32,000 nucleotides of DNA from assembly GCF_000146505.1 (NCBI RefSeq), contig NC_017448.1, positions 1,740,001-1,772,000 of the forward strand, read 5' to 3'. Both the position numbers and the translations under genes were made by a program. The notes beneath the pieces are model-generated. The model was not told the DNA's origin, made no database searches, and worked only from the letters and a program-made list of their open reading frames with translations. The stretch comes from Fibrobacter succinogenes subsp. succinogenes S85. GTDB taxonomy: Bacteria > Fibrobacterota > Fibrobacteria > Fibrobacterales > Fibrobacteraceae. Numbering within the stretch: position 1 is the stretch's first letter; the number at the start of each line of letters is the position of its first letter. This document shows positions 3,427 through 31,013 of this stretch, piece by piece.

Positions 3427-6400
3427 TTTAAAAGGACTTCGCAATCTCTATGATCCACTAACAAAAAGACTTCGCCATTCAACTTCACTTTTTTTATAGC
3501 AGTTTCACTTTTCGACAATTCACAAACATTTTGATATTCAGGCTCGATAACCTTATCCAATAAATATATTTTATTTATCTGTTTAGAAAATACCGTTAAA
3601 AATGCGGCACATTTTTCAAACTCAGCAAAGCAATCGTTTTCGACATCAATATCGTCTCTGCATTTCAATTCAATTTTGGTACAATCATCACATGTTTTAT
3701 CATATTCAATATTTTCGTCAGGATATATACCAGCAATAATTTTGAATTGCAAGTCACCGCTGCGAACAACCGGCTCATCGCATACAGTATAAACGCTTTT
3801 GAAGCCTAACCCAAATTTACCTGTTTGGCCATTTTCTTGGCTTTTTTCCGAAGACGCGATAGACAGCATGTTTTGCAAATCACGTTTAAAAGAATTCGCA
3901 ATATCATCATCCACTTCTGGAAAACTTTGATTAATCTTTCGACCGTAATGAATTATTTCAAGTCGTTTTGCAATAGAATCAAAATGCACCTCAAATTTTT
4001 TCTTATCGGCATATTTCAAGGCAATATCTTCAGGTGCCTTTAGAAAATCGTTAACGCAATCATCTGCATTCTGAAATAATTCAAAAAGGATACTTGAACT
4101 AAAATATTGATGTTCCTTTATCTTATGACAAACGCGATCAAAAATATATCGCTGTAAATCCGGTTCTCTTATTACTGTTTCTAACATTTCATTTCGCAAA
4201 TCCCATTCTTTTTGCGATTCACTTTCAGAATTCTCATCCTTATTGTCTAGACGATTTATTTCATTATTTAATCTTTTATACTCTTTGTGTTTTACATTCA
4301 AAAAATGTAATGTAGAGAAAATTTCTCGTCTAATGTGTTTTTGAGCAGCTTTTATCGTATATTGGCTAGTTTCGTCAATTAATTTAAAAAACTCATTTTT
4401 CAATAAAAACGCTTTTTTAACATCGATCTTATAAATATTCCACAAAAGAGTTTCTATTAAACATTTAATAGACTCATCAGTATTTATTCCAGACGATTTC
4501 AGCAACCTAACATTAAATGTCTTTGAGATCAAATCAAGATTAACATTTGGATCATACGTAACTTTCGGATTTATTGGAAATTCCTCGCATGTTCCAGCAA
4601 GACTCATCGCCTTATTTGTAGATTGAGAAATAACATTTGCAGTAACATTAATTTCATCAAAAGTCCTGAATCGATTACGCTTGCTTTCTTCCGTTGGGAA
4701 AAGTTTATTGACATGACTAGACGGAATAGTAAATTCATCTCGACAAAATTCATCCAATTTACCAAGAATGGAATCTTCTAAAGCACCAGCCATTCTGCGG
4801 AATTTTCCCTGCATCAAGTATAAAGCTAAAGAAACCAATTTAGGTTGCTTACAATTCTGTCTCCAAAAATCAACAACTTCTTTAATTTCAGCATCCGTTG
4901 CTTTCGGCAAACGCTGTACCATATCATTTTGGGGTATATAATTTGAAATCAAATCATAAGTTTCAGAAGAGCACAGGTTATCTCTTTTGTAAAGTTTCTG
5001 ACCTATACTATGGGAATCAGAACATTGAGGAACAGCAATCAGTTCCGTCGCTAATTTCCATTCCCTTTCAAGTTCATTTTCTGCATTTGGAAATCTACGA
5101 ATATCAGACAACTTAAAATTTGGGTTATCTTTAATCAATTTTAAAATATGATTAAATAATTTTAAAGCATCATCTTCGCAACGGGTATTTTCAGTCAAAG
5201 TATTTAATAATTCTATTCCGTTTTCATAATCAAATGCACCAGGAATTCTTAACTGACAATAGTTCTTCAACAATTCTTCTTTTGAAATTTTTAATTTCGA
5301 ATCACTTCCGATAACCGCATATATTTTTAGTATTTTATTTTTTTGTGTAAGATTATTTATTGCGAGATTAAATATACGCTGCTTTTCATCTTTATCTTCA
5401 ATAGGAAAGTAATAGTTTGAATATTTTTCTTGAATTCGAACGTTTATTTCATCAATTAAATCTAAATTTCTCCTTTTCAAGAAACCCGTTATGTATTTTT
5501 TCTTATCATCATTTATATCTACATCTTCCAATAAAATAAAATTCAACGATTCCTTTAGGATTGCAAAAGATTCTTGTGAGCACCTATCTGTGGTAAGGAT
5601 ATCTTTTATTGAACATAGATTTTCCGAATTCTTTAAAGGAATCCAACAGATACTATCTATTTGACTTAATTCTTTATCCGAAAAAGTGACATAACGCTGC
5701 ATTCTTTCAAGAATCCAATCACAACAGTTTCTAAGAATTCTAGGTTCAAATTTATATGAAATAAGAAATTCCCTTAACGCAGCTCCCTGTGTCAAAATTT
5801 CATAACGATTTCTGTCCGAATCGCTTATAAAAAACGAATCTTGTTTACTTCTCAGCAAATCATCCTTTTCACATGGTATAATTTTACCCTCCAATGAAGG
5901 TACATCTACCTCAAATTCAATATTATGCTTATTATACCACGTTGATCCTGGAACGAAAGACACAAATTCACCTTTTTCATTTTTATGTAAAGGTATTCTA
6001 TAATACAAGTTCCTTTTTGGTTCATTAATGACTTCAAATATTTGCTTGCGATTACTCTCATTTTGATAATACTCCGTTTTCATAAAATCAAGATTATTAC
6101 CTTGAGAAAAATGTACAAGCATTTCTTGACATTCATTATTATCTAGCCATGTTATATTTTTCAAAAGAGTATTGTGATTTTCAACAAATTTTTTTTGATT
6201 TTCGCTAAGAGTTAAAAGTTCTATTGCTTTATTATCCTTTTTTAAGCAATCTTCATATATTTTTTTCCAAACTTCACTACAATTAGGCTTTAGAATACAA
6301 ATTTTTGACTGCGTTTCCTTGAACCCCATCAATAAAAATGTATAGATTCCTGAATATTCTGGTCGAATATTTTCAAGCAAACTGTTTCTATCAAAAATAC

Positions 6401-18888: not shown

Positions 18889-18931
18889 AATGTAGATTCA
18901 ACGGACGACAATTAACGTCGTCCGACATACC
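18889..18931 (-). promoter_or_regulatory. Island element copy 1 (AATGTA box - N10 - ACGAC N7 GTCGT palindrome)
   Basis: AATGTA lies at 18889-18894. GGACGAC-AATTAAC-GTCGTCC lies at 18903-18923 (7-bp arms). The element is 27 nt upstream of ATG 18861 and 17 nt downstream of the GNAT stop. It shares more than 40 nt with copy 3, differing at only a few positions. Confidence 0.6.
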
Positions 18932-19955: not shown

Positions 19956-22259
19956 TTACAGCCCCAATCTGCGTCCTTGATGGTCATCTTTGTTGGCAAT
20001 TTCTTCGAGCATGTTCTGCATAATCAGTTCTCGCGTGCGCAAGTCAGCGGGAACGTAGACAAGTTTACGGCGAACATTTTGGAAATCGCTGATAGACACG
20101 TTATCGCAAGCAAGAACTTCTCTTGGGCATTTATCCCCAAAAAACGATGTCCATGTTTTCGAAACCTGCTTAGAGTCCATATAGTCAAACGCTAGCTTCA
20201 GCTGAAAACGCCGGCGGATCGCCCAATCCAAAACGTTCTCGTAATTCGTGGCTGCAATAAGCATTCCGTTGAACGAATCCATTTGGCATATAAACTCATT
20301 TACCAAAGTCACTTCCCAGTGATTTTTTGCATTACCACGATTTTCAAAAAAGCTATCAGCTTCGTCAATGAAGAGAATAGCATCGCTCTGTTCAGCTTCT
20401 CTGAACATTTCACGAATGTTGCGTTCCGTATCGCCCACAATTCCGCCAAGGATATCGCTTGCACGTTTCACGAGCAAATCGCGACCAAGAATATCTTGAG
20501 CAATATGCTTTGCATAAGCCGACTTCCCCGTTCCCGGAGGACCATACAAAAAGATGTTCAAGTTTTCTCTGCGACCATTCAATGTCGAAGATCGCCATTG
20601 CGCATCAAAATTTTTGAGCATCGGAATGACATAGTCAATATTCTTTATATCCCCGCTAGAAATGCGGACACATTCCATATTGTATTCAAATTCTTTCGCC
20701 TTCTGCGAGCCCATCGATATGCCCAAAAGTTTGGCATGAGACGACGCAATCTCACGCACCACATTCAACGGGGAAAAATCCGCCGCCTGCATCCGCTGCG
20801 CCTGACGCACCGCCAAAGTTATGCTCCCCGCCATCACGGGAATTTCCTTGGCAATATTCTCTATTTCGTCGTTGCACAAAATCGATTCAGCCTGCTGCGC
20901 TTTAAGAACAGACTGCCAAATTGCAACACGTTCTTTATTACTGAACGTAAAAAATTCCAGCGAATAGTCAAACCGGCGACGAGTACTATTTTCAATACAC
21001 GCAATATTATTCGTAATCCAAATAACAGGCGTTTTCAGATTTTCAAAAATGATATTCAGCAAACCTTTCTCCGCCTGATTCAAGACCAAATCAGCTTCGT
21101 CCATCAGAATTATGCCACCACACCGCTCACATTCCCAATCAGCAAGCAACATGGAACGCAAACGAGTCTGCAAAAGGGATTCCTTATCCATAGATTCATC
21201 GCCCATGCCCACAGCAAGCATAGGGACATTCAACTCCTGAGCAAGCGCTTTCGCAAGTTCCGTTTTTCCCGTCCCTTCACGACCGTAAAAAAGAATATTG
21301 AGAGGCGAACCCTTCTGATGAGTTTTCAGCATCTGCAAAACAAAGAACGCCTGCGGATTCGTCTTGACAATTTGCGCATAACCAACGCAAGGTTTTGGCG
21401 CAGTTTTCAAATCCATAATCCTTGATATATCCGAAAAACCAGACAGGAAATCGCTTACCTCGCTCGCCAAATACAGTTCACGCCGCTTGATTTTCAAATC
21501 TGCATTTCGATTCGTTTCCTCCATACGCACCAGCTGAAACTTGATAAGCGCGCTCTCCTTTGAACAGAGTTCATGCAACGTTTCCGGCTCCAACCCAGCA
21601 ATCAAAGAAATTCGCCTAAACGATCCCCGTTCGGACGGATCAAAGTAATCAAACATTTTCGAGATCTTTTCAACCTTAAAAAACATGTTATGATGATCGC
21701 GCAGCCATAAATACAGCACAAGATCCAAGGCTTCATCCGAAAGATGGAAAAGACGCTTCAATTCAAAAGCCCTCTGCATCGACACATCGCTTTCATCGCA
21801 TCCGCCAGCAAGCCAGTTTGCGGAACACTCTTGAATTGACCGAGAAAGCAACAGGCGTGTATAAACATCACCATCGCCCCAATGAGCAACAAAGCTCAGG
21901 AAATGCTTTGCAAAAATGATTCTTCGGCTTTTATGGAATTCTTCAAGAAGATCCTTCGCCTTGTACCACTTATTCTCAATCTCCGTCGTAATTCCAGTAG
22001 GGAGTTCAATGCGTTCACGGGCTTCATACACTCTATCCAAAAAAGTCGCAACGCATTCATCTGTTATATACTTGTCGCAAAAGACCCGACAATCCCCATC
22101 TGGATAATACCGCATAAAGCGGCTCCAAAATTCCATAATTTTCAAGTCCATAAAAGTCGGCTGACCGCTCAGAGACTTTTCAGAGACACCTTCTTTACCA
22201 AGCATTTTGCGCTTATTTTTAAAGTAATTTTCGATTGTATTTTCGTAATGTAACTGCAT
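19956..22259 (-). CDS. Tandem classical AAA+ ATPase (two ATPase modules) with an uncharacterised ~330-aa N-terminal region
   Basis: Module D1 has Walker A YGREGTGKTELAK and Walker B GIILMDEAD. Module D2 has Walker A YGPPGTGKSAYAK, Walker B ILFIDEADSF and a second region of homology (ATNYENVLDWAIRRRF). I place the start at ATG 22259 (MQLHYEN..), which has a GAGG SD. The track's 22343 start would run through element copy 2. Confidence 0.85.
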   Translation of the reverse strand: MQLHYENTIENYFKNKRKMLGKEGVSEKSLSGQPTFMDLKIMEFWSRFMRYYPDGDCRVFCDKYITDECVATFLDRVYEARERIELPTGITTEIENKWYKAKDLLEEFHKSRRIIFAKHFLSFVAHWGDGDVYTRLLLSRSIQECSANWLAGGCDESDVSMQRAFELKRLFHLSDEALDLVLYLWLRDHHNMFFKVEKISKMFDYFDPSERGSFRRISLIAGLEPETLHELCSKESALIKFQLVRMEETNRNADLKIKRRELYLASEVSDFLSGFSDISRIMDLKTAPKPCVGYAQIVKTNPQAFFVLQMLKTHQKGSPLNILFYGREGTGKTELAKALAQELNVPMLAVGMGDESMDKESLLQTRLRSMLLADWECERCGGIILMDEADLVLNQAEKGLLNIIFENLKTPVIWITNNIACIENSTRRRFDYSLEFFTFSNKERVAIWQSVLKAQQAESILCNDEIENIAKEIPVMAGSITLAVRQAQRMQAADFSPLNVVREIASSHAKLLGISMGSQKAKEFEYNMECVRISSGDIKNIDYVIPMLKNFDAQWRSSTLNGRRENLNIFLYGPPGTGKSAYAKHIAQDILGRDLLVKRASDILGGIVGDTERNIREMFREAEQSDAILFIDEADSFFENRGNAKNHWEVTLVNEFICQMDSFNGMLIAATNYENVLDWAIRRRFQLKLAFDYMDSKQVSKTWTSFFGDKCPREVLACDNVSISDFQNVRRKLVYVPADLRTRELIMQNMLEEIANKDDHQGRRLGL

Positions 22260-22286
22260 GGTTTTAACCTCAATTTTGCACCATGC

Positions 22287-22321
22287 AATATAAAAGAAAC
22301 GCACGACAATTAATGTCGTGC
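22287..22321 (-). promoter_or_regulatory. Island element copy 2
   Basis: AATATA lies at 22287-22292. GCACGAC-AATTAAT-GTCGTGC lies at 22301-22321 (perfect 7-bp arms). The element is 27 nt upstream of ATG 22259 and 29 nt downstream of the stop at 22350. Confidence 0.6.
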
Positions 22322-22349
22322 GAGATTTTTTAACAAGCCACACAAAATC

Positions 22350-23567
22350 CTACATGGCTTCATTTGCTTTATTCTCTACTTTCGCCTCATTTACAATTTT
22401 TTCAGTTTTTTTGTACACATCATACAAACCATCCACAATTTGTTTATCATCATTTTCATCTATAGATTGTACAATAATACTCCATTTTTCATTCTGTGAC
22501 AAATCATGAGTCGTTTTTATAACATCTATTTTACCATCAATCAACTTTTTATACAAAGCTTCCCTGGCTCTATCACCATCACCTTGCCATACACTAAGGC
22601 TAATATCAAATTTTTTCTTATTAAAACCAGCCTCTATTCCTAATGCGTATTTAGGATTATTTTCTTCAAAACATCCTTTTAGATAAAAATAACGCCTCTT
22701 ATCCCGAGGATTTATCCAAATCTCTTTCTTCATAAATTCGCAAAAAGTTGCATTTTCCTTTAAGGCAAGAAGATTCTTTATTTTATCAATATGTTGATTA
22801 TTTTCAACTCTTTGTTTTTCCAAAAAAAGATTTCTGCGTTCAATTAGTTGTTCTATAATTCTATTATTTTCATCATTAAGAAAGAAATCTTTTTCATCTT
22901 TAGAAAAATCCGACATATAGCCTCCCTTTCGGTCTAAAAATAAGATAAAATCTGTTAAAACAGGAAGATATTTGGAATTACATTGTGTTAAATAATTACC
23001 TAAATTTTGTTTTAACTTTTCTAAAAACTCTCTATAATAAATCGTTTTAAAATTAGGATTTACATTCTCATATTCAGCCTTTTGACATAAAGCAAAAAGA
23101 ATACACACCGTGTGTAAATCATAACATTCACTTTCATTTTTAACATAATCATAATAATCATTAAAATCATTGTACGCAGGAGCATCAATTTTATTTTCTA
23201 TACACACTTTTAAGCAATCTGTTGTCAACAGTAAATCAATGCGATTCCCTTTTTCAGTATATATTTCTGTTTCAGCACAAACGCTTCGAGTATGCATGAT
23301 ATTTTTCTTATCAAAATTCTCCACTTCTACTGGATACTTTTCTCGATAAGCATCAAAAAGCGAATTAAAAAAAAGAGTTCTAAACCCATGTGGATTTCTT
23401 GAATCAAAGAAAAAAGCGAATATTCTCGAGCATATTTCTTCTAGCCGATTCCACGGATACTCGCACAATTCCAAATAAGTCGGCTCATACATCGGCTTGG
23501 GAAGAAAGTTGTTAAACTTGTTAAGAAGTTCTTTAAACTTTTCAAGCTGATTTTCATCTTTTTCCAT
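22350..23567 (-). CDS. PD-(D/E)XK nuclease family protein (PDDEXK_4-like), 405 aa
   Basis: The core GNRIDLLLTTDCLKVCIENKIDA fits the D...E-x-K pattern. The N-terminal EEICSRIFAFFFDSRNPHGF resembles the E..HS.fLa.LL.P...Hg stretch of this family. It is a paralog of the 24473-25612 protein. The gene is AT-rich. Confidence 0.7.
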   Translation of the reverse strand: MEKDENQLEKFKELLNKFNNFLPKPMYEPTYLELCEYPWNRLEEICSRIFAFFFDSRNPHGFRTLFFNSLFDAYREKYPVEVENFDKKNIMHTRSVCAETEIYTEKGNRIDLLLTTDCLKVCIENKIDAPAYNDFNDYYDYVKNESECYDLHTVCILFALCQKAEYENVNPNFKTIYYREFLEKLKQNLGNYLTQCNSKYLPVLTDFILFLDRKGGYMSDFSKDEKDFFLNDENNRIIEQLIERRNLFLEKQRVENNQHIDKIKNLLALKENATFCEFMKKEIWINPRDKRRYFYLKGCFEENNPKYALGIEAGFNKKKFDISLSVWQGDGDRAREALYKKLIDGKIDVIKTTHDLSQNEKWSIIVQSIDENDDKQIVDGLYDVYKKTEKIVNEAKVENKANEAM

Positions 23568-23612
23568 AAGTAAATCCTCTTAACATTAAATATGATTATA
23601 TCAGACTAGAAG

Positions 23613-23654
23613 AATGTAGATTCAACGCACGACAATTAACGTCGTCAGCATACC
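23613..23654 (-). promoter_or_regulatory. Island element copy 3
   Basis: AATGTA lies at 23613-23618. GCACGAC-AATTAAC-GTCGTCA lies at 23627-23647 (5-bp perfect core). The element is 45 nt upstream of ATG 23567 and 27 nt downstream of the stop at 23674. Confidence 0.6.
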
Positions 23655-23673
23655 TCCTTAACTTTTTTGACAT

Positions 23674-24351
23674 TTATTTCCATAGGGCGCAAATCTTCTG
23701 AATAATCTCTTCCTGTACTTTTCCCTGTGGATGCGGGACGACAATGCAGCAATGCATTTTTCCAGATTCGCCTACTAGGGTAAATTCGCCCGTAGATTCG
23801 TTTTTAGACTTCAATTGACCGCAGGGTTCCCAGCGTTCAAAGAATCGACCAACACCTTTTCCACTTTCGTAGATACCGGTCAAGAAAACGGAAAAACAAG
23901 GATCTAAATCATCCATTTCTGCAAGCAGCAATTGAGCACATTCATTAATCTGTTCACTCCTTAAGCCCTGCGTGGTTCCCTGTTTCGCACGGAAATTAAT
24001 TTTATACAAATCACTCCAATAAAAATCATGGAAAACGTCCGGACCATACGACTCTCCGCGAACTCTTTCAAGAACATGACCGACAACTCGCCAAAAAGGA
24101 GAATCATCATAATAATAACCATCCCTAGATTTGAGCCAGTTCAGTTCATCGTATTCGTAATCGGTCACAAGCGGAACCTTGTCTTGCCCAAGACCGTAAG
24201 TATCACGACCAACGAACATCGGCAACCCTTTCTTAAAGTGGCTTTGCGGACCAACAAAATGCGTCGGCATAATGCCCAAAGCATCGCTATTGGGCAAAGA
24301 TTTCGTCTTTTCGTAAAGGATTTTGTAAAGTTGTTTAACTTGTGGCGTCAT
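23674..24351 (-). CDS. Hypothetical 225-aa protein, possibly uracil-DNA-glycosylase-superfamily fold
   Basis: The coding call rests on the open frame and operon position. The fold idea rests only on FVGRDTYG (compare GQDPYH, motif A) near the N-terminus and VVPHPQG (compare HPSP, motif B) near the C-terminus, in the right order and spacing. This is weak evidence. Confidence 0.55.
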   Translation of the reverse strand: MTPQVKQLYKILYEKTKSLPNSDALGIMPTHFVGPQSHFKKGLPMFVGRDTYGLGQDKVPLVTDYEYDELNWLKSRDGYYYDDSPFWRVVGHVLERVRGESYGPDVFHDFYWSDLYKINFRAKQGTTQGLRSEQINECAQLLLAEMDDLDPCFSVFLTGIYESGKGVGRFFERWEPCGQLKSKNESTGEFTLVGESGKMHCCIVVPHPQGKVQEEIIQKICALWK

Positions 24352-24472
24352 GGTAGAATTCCCTATTTTAAAATTTCATCAAGGTTTTCTTCAATCAAAT
24401 TTTTATTCGTTTGAACGAATTCATCATTTTTAAATTTATAAAAGCCTTATTATTTTCATTTGCATCTAGTTT

Positions 24473-25612
24473 CTAACTAAGCTCTTGAATAGCATCATTC
24501 AATTCTTTTACAAGAGTCGTAAAAGAATCAGGAAGTTTATTGTATTCCAAAGCATCTACAAACGAGCTCTCATTTGGAAATAAAGGTATATTATCTGAGT
24601 AGAATCTCCATTTCATATTTGAGTCATCAACACGAAAACAACTGCATTTCGTTAAAAGTAGCTTTATTATATCATCATCTAACTGATTCGCATTTTTTCT
24701 AAGCAATCCGACTATAAATTTTCCATAATACTCTTTTTGGAACTCAACTGTTAAGAGCCATCGTTCATTGAAAATAATATCAAAACTAGAATACTTTTCC
24801 CAAAGTTTTTCTACATTTGAAATTTTAAAATTCAATTCGTTTGCAAACTGCAACAGCCATTCTTTTATTTTATCAGCAAAACACTTTTTTATTTCTAGCT
24901 GACATTGCATCATATAAAAGAAAAGTTTTAATTTATCTTCTGTACTTGTAAACTCAGACACCAATTCTCTTTTTTCTTCTTGAATCATACCTTGTCCTGT
25001 AAGCTTTAATATTAATTCTCTATATTGATCAATAAGTGAATAAATCCGATATTTTGAATTCGTTTCATCCAAACAACTATTAAGCCACTCTAAAATAAAT
25101 GTATCATAAGAAATACTTTTATACAGATTATTTGGTAAACCATCAAGGCTTTTTGCAGACGGGTCTTTTCCATCTAAAGTCAAATACAACAATTGTGCTT
25201 TAGGATACACATCATGATATTTTGCAAGCTGATTATTTTGATCATCTGCGTAAATTTTATTTTCAATCACAACGCTGTTTTCTTTTTTATCAGTCTCTAA
25301 AAAAATGTCAATAAAGCCTTTGCCATATTTTTCAGATTCAACTTTTTTTTCGCACACCACATTACATAAATCGTCATACCTCAAATTTAATCGTTGAAAA
25401 AATAATTTTAAATATTTTGACGATTGTTTATGAGAACCTTTGGGATTCAACAACTCAGCAATAAAAGCAGAATGTTTTTTTTCTACATTTTCCAATTTTA
25501 GCACTTCAAATACATTGAATAGATCCTTTTCTTTTTTTACATTTTCATATTTTCGTTTAATTGATTCTATTTTCGAAAGCAGATTGGATAATATTTCTGT
25601 ATTAGCATTCAT
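24473..25612 (-). CDS. PD-(D/E)XK nuclease family protein (PDDEXK_4-like), 379 aa from ATG 25612
   Basis: It has NVEKKHSAFIAELLNPKGSHKQSSKYLKLF and the core GFIDIFLETDKKENSVVIENKIYADDQNNQLAKY (D...E-x-K plus QL.(R/K)Y). The track's 25645 start is a TTG; ATG 25612 has an AGGGA SD. Confidence 0.7.
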   Translation of the reverse strand: MNANTEILSNLLSKIESIKRKYENVKKEKDLFNVFEVLKLENVEKKHSAFIAELLNPKGSHKQSSKYLKLFFQRLNLRYDDLCNVVCEKKVESEKYGKGFIDIFLETDKKENSVVIENKIYADDQNNQLAKYHDVYPKAQLLYLTLDGKDPSAKSLDGLPNNLYKSISYDTFILEWLNSCLDETNSKYRIYSLIDQYRELILKLTGQGMIQEEKRELVSEFTSTEDKLKLFFYMMQCQLEIKKCFADKIKEWLLQFANELNFKISNVEKLWEKYSSFDIIFNERWLLTVEFQKEYYGKFIVGLLRKNANQLDDDIIKLLLTKCSCFRVDDSNMKWRFYSDNIPLFPNESSFVDALEYNKLPDSFTTLVKELNDAIQELS

Positions 25613-25647
25613 AGGAATCCCTAAATCAAACTTTTCACAGCCCAAAG

Positions 25648-25785
25648 CTATTTTTTTTCATCTTTCCTCTTTTTTTTCCACTCTTTATACTTTTTAACCC
25701 CCTTTTCAGCGCCTTTTTTGATTCCGAATACAGCAATTAGCGCTTTTACGACTGTAAAAATATCACGTTGAGTAGCCTTATCCAT
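25648..25785 (-). CDS. Unannotated 45-aa ORF: short hydrophobic helix plus a Lys-rich tail
   Basis: It falls below the track's size cutoff, so I translated it by hand: MDKATQRDIFTVVKALIAVFGIKKGAEKGVKKYKEWKKKRKDEKK. A strong SD (AAGGAG) lies 8 nt upstream. The ATG lies 2 nt after the upstream stop, and its own stop lies 36 nt before the next ATG. Confidence 0.5.
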   Translation of the reverse strand: MDKATQRDIFTVVKALIAVFGIKKGAEKGVKKYKEWKKKRKDEKK

Positions 25786-25787
25786 AT

Positions 25788-26837
25788 TTAAACTCCTTCT
25801 AGCAACAATTCCTTTTTATAGGCAATTATTTCCTTACTTTGCATTTCCACTGACTTTAACCATTTTGTTGAAGTATCCAATTTCGGCTTAAAATTATCAA
25901 TCCAATAATTTTCTTTCTTTTCAAACAATCTAAATAAATATTTACCATGCGTTTGACTTCGCATAAGTTCAATTCGATCCTTAGTAAACAATCTCTGAAT
26001 TTTACAACGAATTCGGTTTGATTCTGCCGCTAACGCAGGAAATTCATTTGATTGTTGCAAAAGCAACAACTTAATTTGCCAGGATTCAAACAGAAAAGGT
26101 ATATGCTTTATCAACATATCCATATGTTTTTTCGCTTTACCACGACTATCCCTAAATCCTAGATTTTCACATTTTTCAATTTCATCTTCTAATGAGCGAG
26201 TAATTTCACTTTCCCCACAACATATCAAATGTAAAGCGTTTGTTATTACTTGCATTTTTCTTTCTGGACTTTCTATATGTTGGGCCAAAAACAACTCATT
26301 TTTTGCGGCATCAACTTTTGCAAACCTATCATTCCACTGACCTTTGTATATATCGTCTATAGATTCCTGCATATTTTGCAAAGTTTCCTGAATTGCCGCC
26401 ATTTGAGAAGATAACGAAGCTAAAGCCATCGCCATTTCGGGATTACCCGTAGGCAAAAAACGCTCTTCTAGATCAACTTGTCCGACAAGTTCATTATTTG
26501 TTCCTCGTAAATTTGGAGAAAGAGCATCTCTTGCTGAATTTTTTAACAATTTGGCACCGATCTTCGCCATTTTCATCATTGTTTTTTGAGTGACGCAATA
26601 AATTTTTTCTCCTTTATTTTTTTCAGAAAGAAAATTCACAAGATGCGGACCAAAATTTTTCAAAGTATCATAAGCCAAATTTCTAGCTTCTATTGCAATA
26701 TCTTTTAATGTTTCCGATTGACTATTTTCAATTATCGAAACATCTCCAAGATTTTCATCATTCTCTTGAAGCAATTGCAGCAGTTTATCTTCACAAACCT
26801 GCAAAGATTTGTGATTTTCATTTACATTTTCACTCAT
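25788..26837 (-). CDS. Hypothetical 349-aa, predicted mostly helical protein (no recognised domain)
   Basis: The evidence is a long open frame in an AT-rich segment and a strong SD (AAGGAGTTTTTATG). It is the first gene of a four-ORF string. Confidence 0.65.
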   Translation of the reverse strand: MSENVNENHKSLQVCEDKLLQLLQENDENLGDVSIIENSQSETLKDIAIEARNLAYDTLKNFGPHLVNFLSEKNKGEKIYCVTQKTMMKMAKIGAKLLKNSARDALSPNLRGTNNELVGQVDLEERFLPTGNPEMAMALASLSSQMAAIQETLQNMQESIDDIYKGQWNDRFAKVDAAKNELFLAQHIESPERKMQVITNALHLICCGESEITRSLEDEIEKCENLGFRDSRGKAKKHMDMLIKHIPFLFESWQIKLLLLQQSNEFPALAAESNRIRCKIQRLFTKDRIELMRSQTHGKYLFRLFEKKENYWIDNFKPKLDTSTKWLKSVEMQSKEIIAYKKELLLEGV

Positions 26838-27029
26838 AAAAACTCCTTCTTAAAAAGAAATATACCCTCGTTTTCAGGAAATAGCTTAAAAACAGATCCG
26901 AAATCTTTAATTCACCCTCCCATATTCCAAACGGAACCATTCAACGGTTCCAGTGCAGTATTTTCCTGTTTTTCTCTCATATTTTCCGTAAGTCCTCGCA
27001 TTTATTCTTTGGTTTTGCCGACCATTCCC

Positions 27030-27068
27030 AATATAGAACGGGGCCGCGACAATTACAGTCGTCAGCCC
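27030..27068 (-). promoter_or_regulatory. Island element copy 4 (imperfect, bulged arms)
   Basis: AATATA lies at 27030-27035. GGGCCGCGAC-AATTACA-GTCGTCAGCCC lies at 27041-27068, with the core GCGAC/GTCGT and outer GGGC/GCCC pairing. The element is 192 nt upstream of ATG 26837, inside a 507-bp ORF-poor gap. Confidence 0.5.
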
Positions 27069-27344
27069 TTGGCTTGCATTTTTTTCCCACAAAAAAAGCG
27101 TGGAGTTTATGCAATTTACTCAATCGCGGTTCGGCAAAACCTATACGGAATAAACACAAAAACCCACGCCACGAGGCGCGAGTCAGTGCGCTCAGTCTTC
27201 CGTATATTCAAAATTTTGCCGATTTCGATTGAAAGCCAAGAGCAGAGCTCAAACTTATGTCAAAAACTTGATTACCTTATGAAAACCTCTTTTTTCAGTA
27301 ATATAATCAAATTTTCACAAGGCATGCACGCAAAAGCGCGTTTT

Positions 27345-28631
27345 CTACACTTTTTCAGATCCAAGACTCCACTCTAGTGCGTTTTTTATGTGGATGGTCT
27401 TGCCTTTTACAATCTCGTCACGACTTTCGTCGAAGCAAACCAAAGTCAATTCATTGCACTTGAGCACGTCCGAAGCCTGGACCAAGGCCGAGGTTTCGCG
27501 ATTAAACGCTTTGGTAGAATCAATCTCGTATGCGACTTGCACGAGTTCCTTTGCTTTATCTTGTCTGCAAACAACGAAATCGACTTCTTTAGATTGCGAC
27601 GACGGCTTATAATAATACACGTCATCGAACTCCTTCGCGGCTCGACGCAACAGTTCGATGTAAACCATGTTTTCAAGTCGCCAGCCTAGATTCTCTTGCG
27701 AGAGGGCGTTTTCACGATTGGCAATAAATCCGGTATCAATCACATAAGCCTTGCTGTTACGGAGCCGGACTTTGCTCTTGAACGAATGCTTGCTCAACAG
27801 CCCAATCAAGAAAGCCTGTTTAAGATAATCCACGTATTTTATGGCGGTCGTGGTGCTGTTCAGTCCAAAATTCTCAGCCAGGGATTTGTAATTGACCTCT
27901 TGGCAAGAATTGTTGATTATGTGGTTCGCGATGGTACGGAGAACTTCGGCATGGCGAATTTTGAATCGACCCGCGATATCCTTTAGTATTATAGAGTTAA
28001 ATAAACTTTGTATGTAAGCACGTTTGTTGTTAATGTTTTGCAGTTCCGGGAACCCGCCATATTGCAGATATTCAAGGAAGGCCGATTTACGAGCGGCCTC
28101 TGCCTTAGTCGTAACATCTTGCAGATTCACCTGATGAAAGGCGCAGTATTCCGCAAACGAAAGCGGATAGAGACGAATTTCATTGTAACGTCCGGTCAGA
28201 TGCGTCACAAGTTCGCTACTCAGCAGCTTTGCGTTGGAGCCAGTAACAAACACGTGCAATCCCTGTCGCAAAAGACGGTTCACAAACAAATGCCAACCAT
28301 CGACATTTTGAATTTCATCGAGGAGTATGTACTGGATATCCGTACCGTAGAGTTGATAAAGGCAAAGCAGAAGCGTGTTCAAGTCTTCAACAGAAAGCGA
28401 CATCAACCGATCGTCATCTAGGTTCGCATAAGCATAGTTGATGCCATGATCTTGCAGCACCTTGTGGCATATCGTCGATTTTCCACTGCGGCGAACACCG
28501 ATGACCACCTGTGCAAGCGAACTATCCATTTCAAACAGGGCTTCTTCACTACGAGGCACCCAAGAATCACGCCTAGTCGTGATTTCTTCTTTCTGTTCCG
28601 CAAGAACCTGTAACAGTTTCTTTTCGTCCAT
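27345..28631 (-). CDS. AAA_14/DUF4143-like ATPase, 428 aa
   Basis: It has Walker A GVRRSGKSTICHK and Walker B YILLDEIQNVDGW, plus the C-terminal segment KEVDFVVCRQDKAKELVQVAYEI typical of this family. An SD (AAGAGG) is present. Confidence 0.8.
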   Translation of the reverse strand: MDEKKLLQVLAEQKEEITTRRDSWVPRSEEALFEMDSSLAQVVIGVRRSGKSTICHKVLQDHGINYAYANLDDDRLMSLSVEDLNTLLLCLYQLYGTDIQYILLDEIQNVDGWHLFVNRLLRQGLHVFVTGSNAKLLSSELVTHLTGRYNEIRLYPLSFAEYCAFHQVNLQDVTTKAEAARKSAFLEYLQYGGFPELQNINNKRAYIQSLFNSIILKDIAGRFKIRHAEVLRTIANHIINNSCQEVNYKSLAENFGLNSTTTAIKYVDYLKQAFLIGLLSKHSFKSKVRLRNSKAYVIDTGFIANRENALSQENLGWRLENMVYIELLRRAAKEFDDVYYYKPSSQSKEVDFVVCRQDKAKELVQVAYEIDSTKAFNRETSALVQASDVLKCNELTLVCFDESRDEIVKGKTIHIKNALEWSLGSEKV

Positions 28632-28643
28632 AAAGTACCTCTT

Positions 28644-28723
28644 AATGGACTAAAATATAGGTTTTTATCCATCAAAATGGACTAAAATACAGAAAATAAC
28701 CCATCATAATGGACTAAAATATA
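28644..28723 (-). repeat. Three direct 16-bp repeats at an exact 32-bp period, upstream of the AAA_14 ATPase gene
   Basis: AATGGACTAAAATATA lies at 28644-28659, AATGGACTAAAATACA at 28676-28691 and AATGGACTAAAATATA at 28708-28723. Copies 2 and 3 share further upstream context (CCATCA.AATGG). In gene orientation each reads TATATTTTAGTCCATT, so each contains a TATATT box. Confidence 0.75.
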
Positions 28724-28761
28724 AAATTTGATATTTTTCGCTCAAAAAAGCCAAATCCACA

Positions 28762-29292
28762 TCACAGAATCAAGTTCACGACGAGCTTGACCATGGTTTC
28801 GCGCTCTTCGGGTTTGCTTTCGGCGATGAGCAGCGTGAGTGCGACGAGAGCACCATCGCTCAAAATTTTGGAGCCGTCCACGCGGTAGAGGATTTCGTTG
28901 CGGGACATGTACCACAAGAAAATGAATGCGGCTATGCGCTTGTTGCCATCGATAAAGGAATGGTTCTTGACGAGAAGATAGAGGAGCGTTGCGGCTTTCA
29001 GCTGTACGGTCGGATAAAGGTCCTTGCCGTCGAAGGTCTGGTAAATTTGTCCGAGAGAACTTTTGAAAGAGGCGTCTTTTTCAACGCCGAAGATGCCGCT
29101 GTCGCGGAACTTTTCCTTGAGCACAGCGATAGCGTCCACAGCGAGTTCGTATGTTATGGCACCTTTCGTTTCGGCGTAGTCGCCTGCCTTGGGGATTTCA
29201 AGTTGTTGATGGTCGTACCGGTCCAGCGTTTCGAGGGCCGTTCTAAAGTCGCTGATGACGTTTGCAATTTCAAGTTTTTCGTTTTTATCCAT
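28762..29292 (-). CDS. Fic/Doc-family protein (Doc-type motif)
   Basis: HSFIDGNKRIAAF matches the Doc variant HxFx(D/N)(A/G)NKR of the Fic core. The protein is 176 aa and has a strong SD (AAGGAG). No Phd-like small ORF lies adjacent. Confidence 0.8.
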   Translation of the reverse strand: MDKNEKLEIANVISDFRTALETLDRYDHQQLEIPKAGDYAETKGAITYELAVDAIAVLKEKFRDSGIFGVEKDASFKSSLGQIYQTFDGKDLYPTVQLKAATLLYLLVKNHSFIDGNKRIAAFIFLWYMSRNEILYRVDGSKILSDGALVALTLLIAESKPEERETMVKLVVNLIL

Positions 29293-29322
29293 GACGTACT
29301 CCTTTTGTAGGGGAACGTCAAG

Positions 29323-29355
29323 AATATAGAATGACGATGCGACAATTACTGTCGC
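29323..29355 (-). promoter_or_regulatory. Island element copy 5
   Basis: AATATA lies at 29323-29328 and GCGAC-AATTACT-GTCGC at 29339-29355. The element is 30 nt upstream of ATG 29292 and 6 nt downstream of the PLD stop. Confidence 0.6.
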
Positions 29356-29360
29356 TTAGA

Positions 29361-29882
29361 TTACTTGATTCTATCGCTGCAGAATTCCTGGCGGCCGCAT
29401 TTTTCGCAGTGGGCACCCATCCAGAGCGTGTCGAATTGCTCGATGGCGGGTTCGACGATTTGCGGGTCGTTCGTGAGGATTCCCGCTTCGAAGTTGCGAC
29501 GGAGGGAACTTTTCATGCCGATGCCTGCGCCGGTCAAATTTGCGGAGCCGATGTAGGCGGTTTCAAGGTCGAATATCATCATCTTGAAATGCACTCGCGG
29601 ACACATGACGCGTTCAAGGTCGGTCGCGAGAATCTTATAGCGGTCGAAATCTTCGCGGAAGTTCGGGCCGGGTTCCTTGGCGTGAATGAGCCGCACACCT
29701 ACGCCGCGCTTGAGGAGTCCTGCGAGTTGTCCGAGCAGCGGGATTGATTCGCCGTTCTGTTTCACATAAACATCCTTGATGTCGGCGGTACCGATCCAGA
29801 GCGTTTCGTGGACTGTTGCGATACGGGAAATCACTTCGGAATAGTGTTCTTCGTTTTGGATGTACTTGGTAAACGTGGACAT
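29361..29882 (-). CDS. Single-HKD phospholipase D-superfamily protein (Nuc-like endonuclease candidate), 173 aa from ATG 29882
   Basis: It contains a perfect HxK(x)4D(x)6GSxN motif: HFKMMIFDLETAYIGSANLT. The small size implies a homodimeric Nuc/BfiI-like active site. The C-terminus carries CEKCGRQEFC. The track's 29912 start is a TTG inside element copy 6. Confidence 0.85.
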   Translation of the reverse strand: MSTFTKYIQNEEHYSEVISRIATVHETLWIGTADIKDVYVKQNGESIPLLGQLAGLLKRGVGVRLIHAKEPGPNFREDFDRYKILATDLERVMCPRVHFKMMIFDLETAYIGSANLTGAGIGMKSSLRRNFEAGILTNDPQIVEPAIEQFDTLWMGAHCEKCGRQEFCSDRIK

Positions 29883-29889
29883 AGAAAGA

Positions 29890-29938
29890 AATATAGTATT
29901 GTCGCACGACAATAAATGTCGTCGGATTTATATATATT
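29890..29938. promoter_or_regulatory. Island element copy 6, flanked by divergent -10 boxes (PLD to the left, WYL regulator to the right)
   Basis: ACGAC-AATAAAT-GTCGT lies at 29906-29922. An outward-facing TATATT box sits exactly 10 nt away on each side: AATATA at 29890-29895 (minus strand) and TATATT at 29933-29938 (plus strand). Confidence 0.6.
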
Positions 29939-29996
29939 GAAAATACAAGATGGCGATGCCGGAACGGAGTCCGGCATGACAAGGAAAGAGGTTTTT

Positions 29997-31013
29997 ATGG
30001 AAAATCCGGGTCGCGGCGAACGCATGGTGCGAATTTTTGTGTACCTGATGGCACACTATAACAATCGTTATAGCGTTACGGACATCATGCAGCATTTGGA
30101 TATTCCCGCAAATGAATTGCGAAGCGTGCAGCGCGATATGCAGGCCTTGACAAATCTTGAAAGCCGTTACATCCAACGCATTACTGACAGTGGCAAGACT
30201 TATTACCAGGCGGCGCTTGAACGTGCGAACAAGCTCGTATTCCCAGAGTTTGGCGACATGGTTTTGCATTTCGTCTTTTTGCAGCGCATCGCAAACTTGT
30301 ACCCGGCAACAGCTAGCCTTATCGATGACCTCACCAAGAGAATCACGCAGGATTTGCCCGCGAAGCAGCAAGATGTTTTGAAGAGCTATTCAAAAGAATT
30401 GAGCGGGCGCATTCTCTTTATGGGGACTCCGCCCAATTACGACGAAGACGTGAGCAAGCACCTGCCGACCATTCTTAACGCGATTCGTCAAAAACGGAAA
30501 GTACAGATAAAATATACAGACAATTGGGGAACGCCATCGGATAAGCCACGCATTCCGCTGATGGTCGCCATAAGTCATGGAGACATTTATATCGGTTGCG
30601 TTTCGCAGCACCACCCCGACAAAACTTACGCGTTAAAATTGCAACGCATCGAGTCGGTAAAATTGCTGAAGGAAACTTTTGAAGAAGACCCGAAGGTTGT
30701 TGAATCACTGCGCAAGCGCATCCGCACGGGATCTTTGCTTTTGGGCGAACAGAATCCGCAAGAGGAAAAGGTCGTCATTTACTTCCCGAAATACGCCAAG
30801 AACTTTTTGAAGGAACGTCCGTACCACCGCTCCATGGAAATGGAAGACGCGCCAGGCGACGAGATCCGCGTAACGATGAAGGTCGAGGTGAACGAGCTGC
30901 TCAAGCAGTGGATTATGTATTATGGGAACATCGCGACGGTTGAACAGCCGAAAAAGTTGAGGCAGATGATACTGGAAACGGCAAAAAAGCTGGTGGAAAA
31001 GTACGAAAAGTAA
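29997..31013 (+). CDS. WYL-domain transcriptional regulator (HTH - WYL - C-terminal extension)
   Basis: The N-terminal wHTH-like segment is RMVRIFVYLMAHYNNRYSVTDIMQHLDIPANELRSVQRDMQAL. The WYL-type core is KVQIKYTDNWG...PRIPLMVAISHGDIYIGCVS....YALKLQRIESVKLL. I place the start at ATG 29997, which has the SD AAGGAAAGAGG. The track's 29916 start would run through the operator. Confidence 0.8.
   Translation: MENPGRGERMVRIFVYLMAHYNNRYSVTDIMQHLDIPANELRSVQRDMQALTNLESRYIQRITDSGKTYYQAALERANKLVFPEFGDMVLHFVFLQRIANLYPATASLIDDLTKRITQDLPAKQQDVLKSYSKELSGRILFMGTPPNYDEDVSKHLPTILNAIRQKRKVQIKYTDNWGTPSDKPRIPLMVAISHGDIYIGCVSQHHPDKTYALKLQRIESVKLLKETFEEDPKVVESLRKRIRTGSLLLGEQNPQEEKVVIYFPKYAKNFLKERPYHRSMEMEDAPGDEIRVTMKVEVNELLKQWIMYYGNIATVEQPKKLRQMILETAKKLVEKYEK

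What the first reader, a model, noticed from the sequence alone, without database searches (positions are those of the whole stretch)
23674..26837. AT-rich four-ORF string: 349-aa unknown + 45-aa peptide + PD-(D/E)XK nuclease + 225-aa protein
The four ORFs lie head to tail on the minus strand, with gaps of 2, 36 and 121 nt. They are driven from element copy 4, are visibly more AT-rich than the flanking island segments, and have strong SDs on the first two genes. Only the nuclease has a recognisable family (IDIFLE...VVIENKI). The 349-aa protein matches nothing I can name. An unknown large subunit, a tiny basic/hydrophobic peptide, a nuclease and a possible base-recognition enzyme together form a plausible self-contained defence cassette of unknown mechanism.
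Basis: partly seen in the sequence, partly recalled or inferred. Interest (0 to 1): 0.65.

Follow-up and report, generated by a model that had tools for sequence, protein, structure and literature searches.

The report
Mosaic defence operon in Fibrobacter island
The four genes are real and are probably transcribed together, but they are a patchwork of separately inherited pieces rather than one four-part machine: an uncharacterised protein with its tiny membrane-type peptide, a stand-alone nuclease that was inserted later, and a probable DNA-glycosylase-like gene that belongs to the island backbone.

Summary
Four head-to-tail minus-strand ORFs (349, 45, 379 and 225 aa) lie between two copies of a repeated element, with no terminator-like site inside.

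The "self-contained four-gene cassette" reading is only partly supported.
- **A+B (349 aa + peptide):** this is the invariant pair. A B-like peptide follows A in 34 of 34 related loci.
- **C (nuclease):** it is PDDEXK_4, which matches PADLOC's single-gene candidate PDC-S26. It sits on a 1.2-kb presence/absence block. The A-B-C-D order was found in one other contig (L030).
- **D (225 aa):** its G+C matches the island backbone. It also occurs without A-B, and it gives weak but repeated uracil-DNA-glycosylase-superfamily signals. Every A-B locus with enough flank carries such a UDG-like gene.
- **The repeated element:** CGAC-N7-GTCG, then 11 nt, then TAYATT. The core matches the binding site published for the WYL activator DriD. 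A copy also precedes the island's own WYL regulator gene.

Best reading: this is one regulator-controlled operon in a Fibrobacter defence island that stacks independent modules. A-B matches no known family, and its mechanism is inferred only.

The parts
27030..27061 (-). Promoter/operator-like element upstream of A: CGACTGTAATTGTCG, an 11-nt spacer, then TATATT.
   Evidence: 7 copies in the window against 0 expected. The core equals the published DriD box CGAC-N7-GTCG.
27161..27184 (-). Terminator-like hairpin with a T-run that closes the upstream AAA_14/DUF4143 unit.
   Evidence: It lies in a non-coding stretch that is 74-85% conserved in L012, L009, L021 and L031.
25788..26837 (-). A: 349-aa protein of an uncharacterised family. 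It is mostly long helices plus a small beta region at residues 78-127, with a conserved GQWNDRFAK motif.
   Evidence: No match in Pfam, NCBIfam, PHROGs, PADLOC or PDB.
25648..25785 (-). B: 45-aa peptide with a polar N-terminus, a Gly/Ala-rich hydrophobic core and a Lys-rich tail. Its start lies 2 nt after the stop of A.
   Evidence: an equivalent ORF follows A in 34 of 34 loci.
24428..25638 (-). 1211-nt presence/absence block that carries the nuclease gene. The closest relative L012 has 6 nt in its place.
   Evidence: The block has a G+C of 0.28.
24473..25612 (-). C: 379-aa PD-(D/E)XK nuclease of Pfam family PDDEXK_4, matching PADLOC candidate PDC-S26.
   Evidence: E 8e-31; E 1.4e-88, full length. 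The nearest non-Fibrobacter relatives are about 36% identical.
23674..24351 (-). D: 225-aa protein, probably a divergent uracil-DNA-glycosylase-superfamily fold. It is part of the conserved D-E-F backbone.
   Evidence: Its G+C of 0.43 matches the backbone.
23613..23644 (-). Next element copy. It starts the following unit, gene E.
22350..23567 (-). E: a second, unrelated-in-detail PDDEXK_4/PDC-S26 nuclease of 405 aa, alone behind its own element.
   Evidence: BLASTP finds no significant similarity between C and E.
29997..31013 (+). WYL-WCX transcription regulator with its own element copy at 29907-29938. It is the candidate controller of all the element-bearing units.

Best explanation
The four ORFs form one transcription unit in a strain-variable defence island of a Fibrobacter genome. 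The unit is an evolutionary mosaic of functionally separable modules, not one four-subunit machine.

1. **A+B** is a tightly coupled two-gene module. A is a cytoplasmic, mostly helical protein of an undescribed family. B is a 40-50-aa peptide with a Gly/Ala-rich hydrophobic core and a Lys-rich tail. Inferred: B inserts into or perturbs the membrane, and A senses or gates it. This would resemble two-part abortive-infection modules that pair a soluble sensor with a small membrane effector.
2. **C** is an autonomous PD-(D/E)XK DNA nuclease, PADLOC single-gene candidate PDC-S26. It landed between B and D as a 1.2-kb block and is merely co-expressed.
3. **D** is a divergent UDG-fold protein that belongs to the conserved backbone (D-E-F). 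Inferred: it recognises or excises a non-canonical base in invading DNA, as the UDG-family defence glycosylases Brig1 and Brig2 do.

The unit is transcribed from a promoter whose -35 region is replaced by a CGAC-N7-GTCG box. Inferred: the island's wHTH-WYL-WCX regulator binds this box and switches the unit, and the other five minus-strand units, in response to single-stranded DNA or DNA damage during infection.

Shown: gene order, the indel, the mosaic structure, the family matches and the motif array. Inferred: every biochemical activity, and whether regulation is by activation or repression.
For: **Operon structure**
- Elements flank A-D and none lies inside.
- No internal terminator-like site was found.

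**A-B coupling**
- A B-like ORF lies within -14 to +22 nt of the A stop in 34 of 34 loci, giving 23 distinct peptides with the same architecture. This includes remote relatives with A at about 19-30% identity.

**C is separable**
- The window aligns to L012 on both sides of a 1211-nt block that L012 replaces with 6 nt.
- L030 has the same insertion site relative to L012.
- C matches PDC-S26 models end to end.
- E, another PDDEXK_4 gene, stands alone behind its own element.
- A different gene, x378, occupies the same position in L018, L032 and L033.

**D belongs to the backbone**
- Against L018, identity is 95% up to 8 nt before A's ATG, then 68% or no alignment across A-B-C, then 86-88% from 11 nt before D's ATG through E and F.
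- D follows a DUF3944 module without A-B in L021-L025.
- G+C is 0.43 for D against 0.28-0.34 for A-C.

**D is UDG-like**
- 18 of 20 family members give sub-threshold Pfam UDG hits, best E 0.0018.
- Foldseek on a pTM 0.78 model gives a crAssphage uracil-DNA glycosylase at rank 2 (probability 0.77) and human TDG at rank 8.
- Conserved positions F46-x-G48-R-D50, N119 and H207-P208 lie where UDG motif A, the Asn and motif B would sit. The motif assignment is from my knowledge of the superfamily.

**Regulation**
- The box matches the published DriD site and search pattern (PMC10853764).
- A copy precedes the WYL gene in the window and in the related loci that include a WYL gene.
- The PLD gene's ATG lies 7 nt after TATATT, which fits TAYATT acting as a -10 box.
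- A profile of the WYL proteins hits PafB, DriD, BrxR and CapW.
Against: - No experiment exists for any part.
- A-B-C-D does recur in a second lineage, L030, with C at 77% identity. C could therefore be a beneficial add-on to the module rather than a bystander.
- Every A-B locus with enough flank also has a UDG-like gene. This argues that at least D-type genes may work with A-B, not independently.
- The UDG assignment never reaches significance: Pfam hits are below the gathering score, and Foldseek E-values are 0.085 and 0.27.
- The model of A is poor (pLDDT 67), so nothing structural supports the sensor role.
- B's hydrophobic stretch of about 15-18 residues is short for a transmembrane helix.
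- WYL regulators of defence loci (BrxR, CapW) are repressors, so activation is not established.
Confidence: 0.55

Rival explanations
1. A, B and a UDG-fold protein (D here) form a genuine three-component defence system. The UDG-fold protein detects or excises an unusual phage base. A-B converts that signal into membrane damage or growth arrest. C is an optional extra effector.
For: - Every A-bearing locus with about 2.5 kb or more of flank carries a D225- or 'GESHY'-family gene.
- This holds even where the order is rearranged: upstream of A in L010, L011, L026 and L039, and on the opposite strand in L027.
- 2 of 10 GESHY members hit Pfam UDG, best E 6.7e-5.
- L031 has three such genes in a row after A-B.
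Against: - UDG-like genes also occur with a different upstream module and no A-B (L021-L025).
- The D225 and GESHY families are not detectably homologous to each other.
- D's recombination history and G+C follow the backbone rather than A-B.
- Most of the examined loci are from Fibrobacter or have Fibrobacter-type neighbours, so shared descent of one island could produce the co-occurrence.
Confidence: 0.25
2. All four proteins act as one self-contained four-component system.
For: - The four genes share one element-bounded unit.
- The same order recurs in L030 with diverged sequences: A 89%, C 77%, D 90%.
Against: - C is missing from equally close relatives (L012-L015) and is replaced by another gene in L018, L032 and L033.
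- A-B occurs without D, and D occurs without A-B.
- C belongs to a family that PADLOC models as a single-gene candidate.
Confidence: 0.05
3. The unit is part of a DNA-damage response rather than antiviral defence. On this reading it belongs to a DriD/PafBC-type regulon. B would be a damage-induced small membrane protein that blocks cell division, like Caulobacter DidA, and C and D would be repair enzymes.
For: - The box is identical in form to the DriD site.
[quoted passage not shown] DriD also activates DNA-transaction genes (PMC10853764).
- The closest solved relatives of the regulator are PafB and DriD.
Against: - The genes are strain-variable, AT-rich and mosaic.
- They sit among PADLOC-type candidates, GmrSD in relatives, and Fic and PLD genes. 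This pattern is typical of defence islands, not of core repair regulons.
- WYL regulators are documented next to many defence systems (PMC9122601).
Confidence: 0.1
4. The string belongs to a prophage, an integron or another mobile element, or A-B is a toxin-antitoxin pair that merely stabilises the island.
For: - The content is AT-rich and variable.
- The genes are short and coupled.
- A repeated sequence lies between cassettes.
Against: - A-D give no PHROGs hits.
- No relative of A was found in 2.9 million viral contigs.
- No tRNA was found.
- Pfam scans of 25 of the window's ORFs found no integrase or transposase.
- The repeat carries a -10-like box and a regulator-type palindrome and precedes start codons, so it is not an attC-type site.
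- The island sits at conserved chromosomal positions between housekeeping genes.
Confidence: 0.05

Closest known systems
PADLOC candidate PDC-S26 / Pfam PDDEXK_4 (PF14281) nucleases
   Same: C matches the PDC-S26 models over its full length (E 1.4e-88) and PDDEXK_4 (E 8e-31). The D...E-x-K signature (IDIFLE...VVIENK) is visible in the sequence. Like the candidate, it behaves as a single movable gene.
   Different: Here it is embedded inside another operon, not behind its own promoter. Defence activity of this family is a prediction in PADLOC, not shown here.
UDG-family antiviral DNA glycosylases Brig1 and Brig2 (PMC11078745; bioRxiv 10.1101/2025.10.29.685425)
   Same: D is a small stand-alone protein in a defence island with UDG-like sequence and fold signals. 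Relatives sit next to GmrSD, a modification-dependent restriction enzyme family.
   Different: There is no significant sequence or fold match to any UDG, and no direct comparison with Brig1 or Brig2 was possible. The target base is unknown, and catalysis is unproven. D has G-R-D and H-P-Q where classical families have other motif residues.
wHTH-WYL-WCX regulators: DriD, PafBC (activators) and BrxR, CapW (repressors of defence loci)
   Same: The island encodes a WYL-WCX protein. The repeated box CGAC-N7(AT-rich)-GTCG is the DriD site pattern and also precedes the regulator's own gene. As with BrxR and CapW, the regulator sits beside defence genes.
   Different: Seven boxes lie in 12.5 kb, one per small unit, each at a fixed 11 nt from a -10-like hexamer. 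The N-terminal DNA-binding part shows no detectable similarity to DriD. The ligand and the sign of regulation are unknown.
Two-part abortive-infection modules with a soluble sensor and a membrane effector (lambda RexA/RexB is the classic case, cited from my own knowledge)
   Same: A soluble protein is translationally coupled to a small hydrophobic, basic peptide. Membrane-type neighbours (DUF1232, Gly-zipper peptides) occur in relatives.
   Different: There is no sequence or fold relationship. B is far smaller than RexB. Membrane action is inferred from composition only.

Membership tests
PD-(D/E)XK nuclease, Pfam PDDEXK_4 (gene C) | Score above the Pfam gathering threshold across the domain | tested here: met
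   107.8 bits against a cutoff of 22.3; residues 32-192 cover profile positions 1-176 of 183.
PD-(D/E)XK nuclease, Pfam PDDEXK_4 (gene C) | Catalytic D ... (D/E)-x-K signature present | tested here: met
   Read directly from the translation: GFIDIFLE...VVIENKIYA. Activity itself was not tested.
PADLOC PDC-S26 single-gene defence candidate (gene C) | Full-length match to a PDC-S26 model | tested here: met
   PDLC04980, E 1.4e-88; residues 6-376 cover profile positions 4-383 of 389.
PADLOC PDC-S26 single-gene defence candidate (gene C) | Acts alone, as a single-gene system | tested here: inconclusive
   It behaves as a single-gene indel, and its paralogue E is a one-gene unit. Function was not tested.
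Uracil-DNA glycosylase superfamily (gene D) | Significant match to a UDG profile | tested here: not met
   the window protein has E 0.18, and the best family member has E 0.0018. All are below the 24.3-bit cutoff, although 18 of 20 members hit the same family.
Uracil-DNA glycosylase superfamily (gene D) | UDG alpha/beta fold | tested here: inconclusive
   The model has pTM 0.78. Foldseek gives a crAssphage UDG at E 0.085, probability 0.77 and TM 0.36-0.42, and human TDG at E 0.27. No hit reaches E <= 0.001.
Uracil-DNA glycosylase superfamily (gene D) | Motif A after strand 1 and an H-P motif B near the C-terminus | tested here: inconclusive
   Conserved F46-x-G48-R49-D50, N119 and H207-P208 sit at the expected relative positions. 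Residue identities differ from the classical families, and the comparison is from memory.
WYL (DriD-type) regulated promoter | CGAC-N7-GTCG palindrome with an AT-rich centre in promoters, including the regulator's own | tested here: met
   The pattern is as published in PMC10853764.
WYL (DriD-type) regulated promoter | A regulator with wHTH-WYL-WCX architecture encoded nearby | tested here: met
   WYL E 4.4e-5 and WCX E 1.3e-10. PafB, DriD, BrxR and CapW hits to the WYL-WCX part. The wHTH part was not detected by sequence.
WYL (DriD-type) regulated promoter | Binding of the regulator to the box, and response to single-stranded DNA | not testable with these tools
   This needs EMSA or ChIP, and transcript measurements.
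Any described defence system (genes A and B) | Match to a PADLOC, Pfam, NCBIfam or PHROGs model, or to a solved structure | tested here: not met
   The best fold hit is JukB at E 0.13 on a pLDDT-67 model. DefenseFinder was not available.

The most novel reading that the evidence does not exclude
A, its coupled mini-peptide B and a UDG-fold partner form an undescribed three-part antiviral system. A base-recognising glycosylase-fold protein reports modified phage DNA to a membrane-acting effector pair. Extra effectors such as nuclease C plug into a fixed position between B and the UDG-fold gene. The whole island is wired to a single-stranded-DNA-sensing WYL regulator through portable promoter-operator cassettes, which also serve as recombination junctions for swapping defence genes.
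Probability: 0.2. Interest if true: 0.7.

Novelty: new variant of a known kind. Interest (0 to 1): 0.45.

Why it matters
This case shows how one apparent "four-gene system" breaks down, under comparative analysis, into layers with different histories. That is a useful caution for predicting defence systems from gene strings.

It also leaves three testable leads:
- An uncharacterised protein-plus-mini-peptide pair, always found near UDG-fold genes. It has 31 close homologues, all named ones from Fibrobacter, and up to 271 more distant cluster representatives.
- Several divergent UDG-like families that may extend the recently recognised class of antiviral DNA glycosylases.
- A defence island in which each small unit carries its own copy of a WYL-regulator box. 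This would be an unusually explicit case of one sensor coordinating many defence genes.

Fibrobacter is a major rumen fibre degrader, and I found no published description of its phage defences in the paper library.

Tried and rejected
- **Integron-like array.** Rejected. The scanned ORFs include no integrase. The repeat is a palindrome plus a -10-like box about 7-60 nt upstream of start codons, not an attC-type site.
- **Prophage or satellite.** Rejected: no PHROGs hits for A-D, no viral contig relatives of A and no tRNA.
- **Non-coding RNA in the conserved spacer.** Rfam found nothing at the gathering thresholds over the whole window. A permissive search of 22000-30000 gave one chance-level hit.
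- **C and E as recent duplicates.** Rejected: no significant BLASTP similarity.
- **Fold of A.** The AlphaFold model is weak (pLDDT 67). The Foldseek hits to JukB, ClyA and CorA are all non-significant, so I do not use them.
- **Profile searches with A.** Searches against PDB sequences returned only coiled-coil noise.
- **Link between the two UDG-like families.** hhalign of the D225 family against the GESHY family is not significant.
- **Link between A and x373.** hhalign of A against the 373-aa protein of the alternative module is not significant.
- **Target-site duplication or inverted repeats at the C indel.** None is convincing.
Full report
**1. The observation**

The ORF list shows four consecutive minus-strand ORFs:
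- A, 25788-26837, 349 aa.
- B, 25648-25785, 45 aa.
- C, 24473-25612 from its ATG, 379 aa.
- D, 23674-24351, 225 aa.

The spacers are 2, 35 and 121 nt. A and B are preceded by AGGAG, and C and D by weaker GGGA-type sites.

The pattern CGAC-N3-W-ATTGTCG-N11-TAYAWT occurs seven times in the window against zero in 100 shuffles. One copy lies at 27030-27061 upstream of A and the next at 23613-23644 just after D, with none in between. A terminator-like hairpin at 27184-27161 closes the upstream gene, and no such site lies inside A-D. The four ORFs are therefore best read as one transcription unit.

The AT-richness claim holds for A (G+C 0.33), B (0.34) and C (0.28), but not for D (0.43). D matches the neighbouring backbone genes at 0.44-0.46.

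**2. Organism and setting**

A Fib_succ_major domain protein in the window points to Fibrobacter. So do the database names: "uncultured Fibrobacter", and F. succinogenes MAGs. The exact C protein occurs on a 3.84-Mb contig.

The segment 18.4-31.0 kb is a defence-island-like stretch. It contains:
- a Fic gene (PDC-S23);
- an AAA_14/DUF4143 gene (PDC-S01);
- two PDDEXK_4 genes (PDC-S26);
- a double AAA+ ATPase with an IetA-like domain;
- a PLD nuclease;
- a WYL-WCX regulator.

**3. What each gene is**

- **C** is a PDDEXK_4 nuclease (E 8e-31). It matches the PADLOC single-gene candidate PDC-S26 end to end (E 1.4e-88).
- **A and B** match nothing in Pfam, NCBIfam, PHROGs or PADLOC, and A and its family profiles match nothing significant among PDB sequences.
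- **A's predicted structure** is of low confidence (pLDDT 67). It shows long helices and a small beta region, and has no significant Foldseek match.
- **A's wider family.** A profile of the family finds 271 cluster representatives of similar length at E <= 0.001, but only 5 at E <= 1e-30. Some of these hits may be helix-composition matches.
- **D's family** gives sub-threshold Pfam UDG hits in 18 of 20 members (best E 0.0018). Its model has pTM 0.78. Foldseek finds a crAssphage uracil-DNA glycosylase at rank 2 (E 0.085, probability 0.77) and human TDG at rank 8 (E 0.27). This evidence is convergent but never significant. I call D "probably UDG-fold".

**4. Gene-order comparison, the decisive test**

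I examined 42 related loci, fetched by exact-protein look-ups and pattern scans.

- **A-B is invariant.**
  - A B-like ORF starts within -14 to +22 nt of the A stop in 34 of 34 loci that have enough downstream sequence.
  - These give 23 distinct peptides. All have a polar N-terminus, a Gly/Ala-rich hydrophobic core and a Lys-rich tail.
  - Three distant relatives instead have CxxC...CxxC N-termini.
- **C is an indel.**
  - Against L012/L013 (A 89% identical), window 26848-25639 and 24427-23662 align. The 1211 nt in between are replaced by 6 nt.
  - L030 carries C (77% identical) at the same site, giving A-B-C-D-E.
  - In L018, L032 and L033 a different 378-aa gene sits there.
  - Outside these few Fibrobacter contigs, the nearest C relatives are about 36% identical. 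Most of the named ones are from Bacteroidota.
- **D belongs to the backbone.**
  - Against L018, identity is 95% up to 8 nt before A's ATG. It falls to 68% or nothing across A-B-C, then returns to 86-88% from 11 nt before D's ATG through E and F.
  - In L021-L025, D follows DUF3944, a 373-aa gene and a 219-aa gene, with no A-B.
- **A-B occurs without D** in L002-L008, L010, L011, L017, L039 and L040.

**5. An unexpected regularity**

Local HMMs were built from the D family and from a second family, here called "GESHY" after its conserved motif. The second family includes the 235-aa, 219-aa and 216-aa proteins and the N-terminal halves of the 366-378-aa proteins.

Every A-bearing locus with about 2.5 kb or more of flank carries at least one member of one of these families, in various positions and orientations. 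Two of ten GESHY members hit Pfam UDG (best E 6.7e-5). The GESHY alignment shows G-E-S-H-Y, A-F-x-N-F and H-P-S blocks in the order of UDG motifs. The D and GESHY families are not detectably related to each other.

L031 has A-B followed by three such genes and then GmrSD. This keeps open a functional tie between A-B and UDG-fold proteins. However, the UDG-like genes also occur without A-B.

**6. The element**

Its core, CGAC-N7-GTCG with an AT-rich centre, is the site and search pattern published for the wHTH-WYL-WCX activator DriD. DriD is switched on by single-stranded DNA (PMC10853764).

- The box always sits 11 nt upstream of TAYATT. It lies 24-58 nt upstream of most start codons, and 192 nt upstream of A.
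- The PLD gene's ATG lies 7 nt after TATATT. This fits a -10 box and a leaderless transcript.
- A copy also precedes the WYL gene itself, in the window (29907-29938, true ATG at 29997) and in related loci.
- A variant, TGAC-N7-GTCG-N11-TATTTT, precedes the WYL gene in a distant low-G+C genome that also has an A-like gene with a mini-peptide.
- A profile of the regulators hits PafB (2e-6), DriD (2e-5 to 1e-4), BrxR (1e-4) and CapW (0.014).
- WYL regulators next to defence systems are documented (PMC9122601, PMC11662680).

I infer that the island's units, including A-D, form one regulon of this WYL protein. Activation versus repression is open.

**7. Mechanism**

Most likely (0.55): a co-regulated stack of separable modules.
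- A-B: a soluble partner plus a membrane-active mini-peptide.
- C: an autonomous nuclease.
- D: a base-recognising UDG-fold enzyme comparable in role to Brig1 and Brig2 (PMC11078745; 10.1101/2025.10.29.685425).

Rivals:
- A three-part A-B-UDG system (0.25).
- A DNA-damage response with B as a DidA-like division inhibitor (0.10).
- A true four-part system (0.05).
- A mobile-element or toxin-antitoxin module (0.05).

**8. Verdict**

The nuclease is a known candidate type. A-B and the UDG-like families are undescribed, but they are documented here only by comparative genomics. Interest is moderate.

Noticed in passing
window 18889-18920, 22287-22318, 23613-23644, 27030-27061, 29323-29354, 29890-29921 (all -), 29907-29938 (+): An array of seven DriD-type boxes (CGAC-N7-GTCG, 11 nt, TAYATT), one ahead of each small unit of the island and one ahead of the WYL regulator gene. 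Sequence variants of the element travel with their downstream gene across loci, and several recombination breakpoints between strains lie at or near them.
   Followed up: partly
window 27357-28759: The AAA_14/DUF4143 gene (PADLOC PDC-S01) is itself a clean single-gene presence/absence block. In L018 and L035 the flanks, which are 95% identical, join directly.
   Followed up: partly
window 26849-26992 versus L012 9381-9989: Many relatives carry a DUF1232 membrane-protein gene, and sometimes a Gly-zipper mini-ORF, between the element and A. The window has only 144 unrelated nucleotides there, which include a GGAACC...GGTTCC hairpin.
   Followed up: partly
window 29361-29882 (-): The ATG of the PLD-family nuclease gene lies 7 nt after the TATATT of its element, which suggests a leaderless transcript.
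   Followed up: partly
window 28644-28739: Three tandem 32-nt repeats (AATGGACTAAAATATAG...) lie between the Fic stop and the AAA_14/DUF4143 start. Their function is unknown.
   Followed up: no
window 26993-27344: A non-coding stretch downstream of the AAA_14 gene is 74-85% conserved in L009, L012, L021 and L031 and contains the terminator-like hairpin. No Rfam family matches it.
   Followed up: partly
window 1642-8867 (-): A second AT-rich block (G+C 0.31-0.33) holds a 1819-aa Sacsin/HATPase_c_3 protein and a 600-aa protein with no family match. It may be another defence-type insertion next to type II secretion/pilus genes.
   Followed up: no
L031 7186-11550; L012 12051-14069: Relatives place up to three different UDG-like genes in a row after A-B. 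These are followed by a GmrSD modification-dependent restriction gene where the window has nuclease E.
   Followed up: partly
L021 4617-7676: An alternative module sits where the window has A-B. It consists of a DUF3944 (MsyB-like) protein, a 373-aa unknown and a 219-aa GESHY-family protein, ahead of D-E-F.
   Followed up: partly
window 19956-22262 (-): A double AAA+ ATPase whose C-terminal half matches IetA/IteA anti-phage ATPase models below the family cutoff. It sits behind its own element, with no IetS-like protease gene noticed nearby.
   Followed up: no
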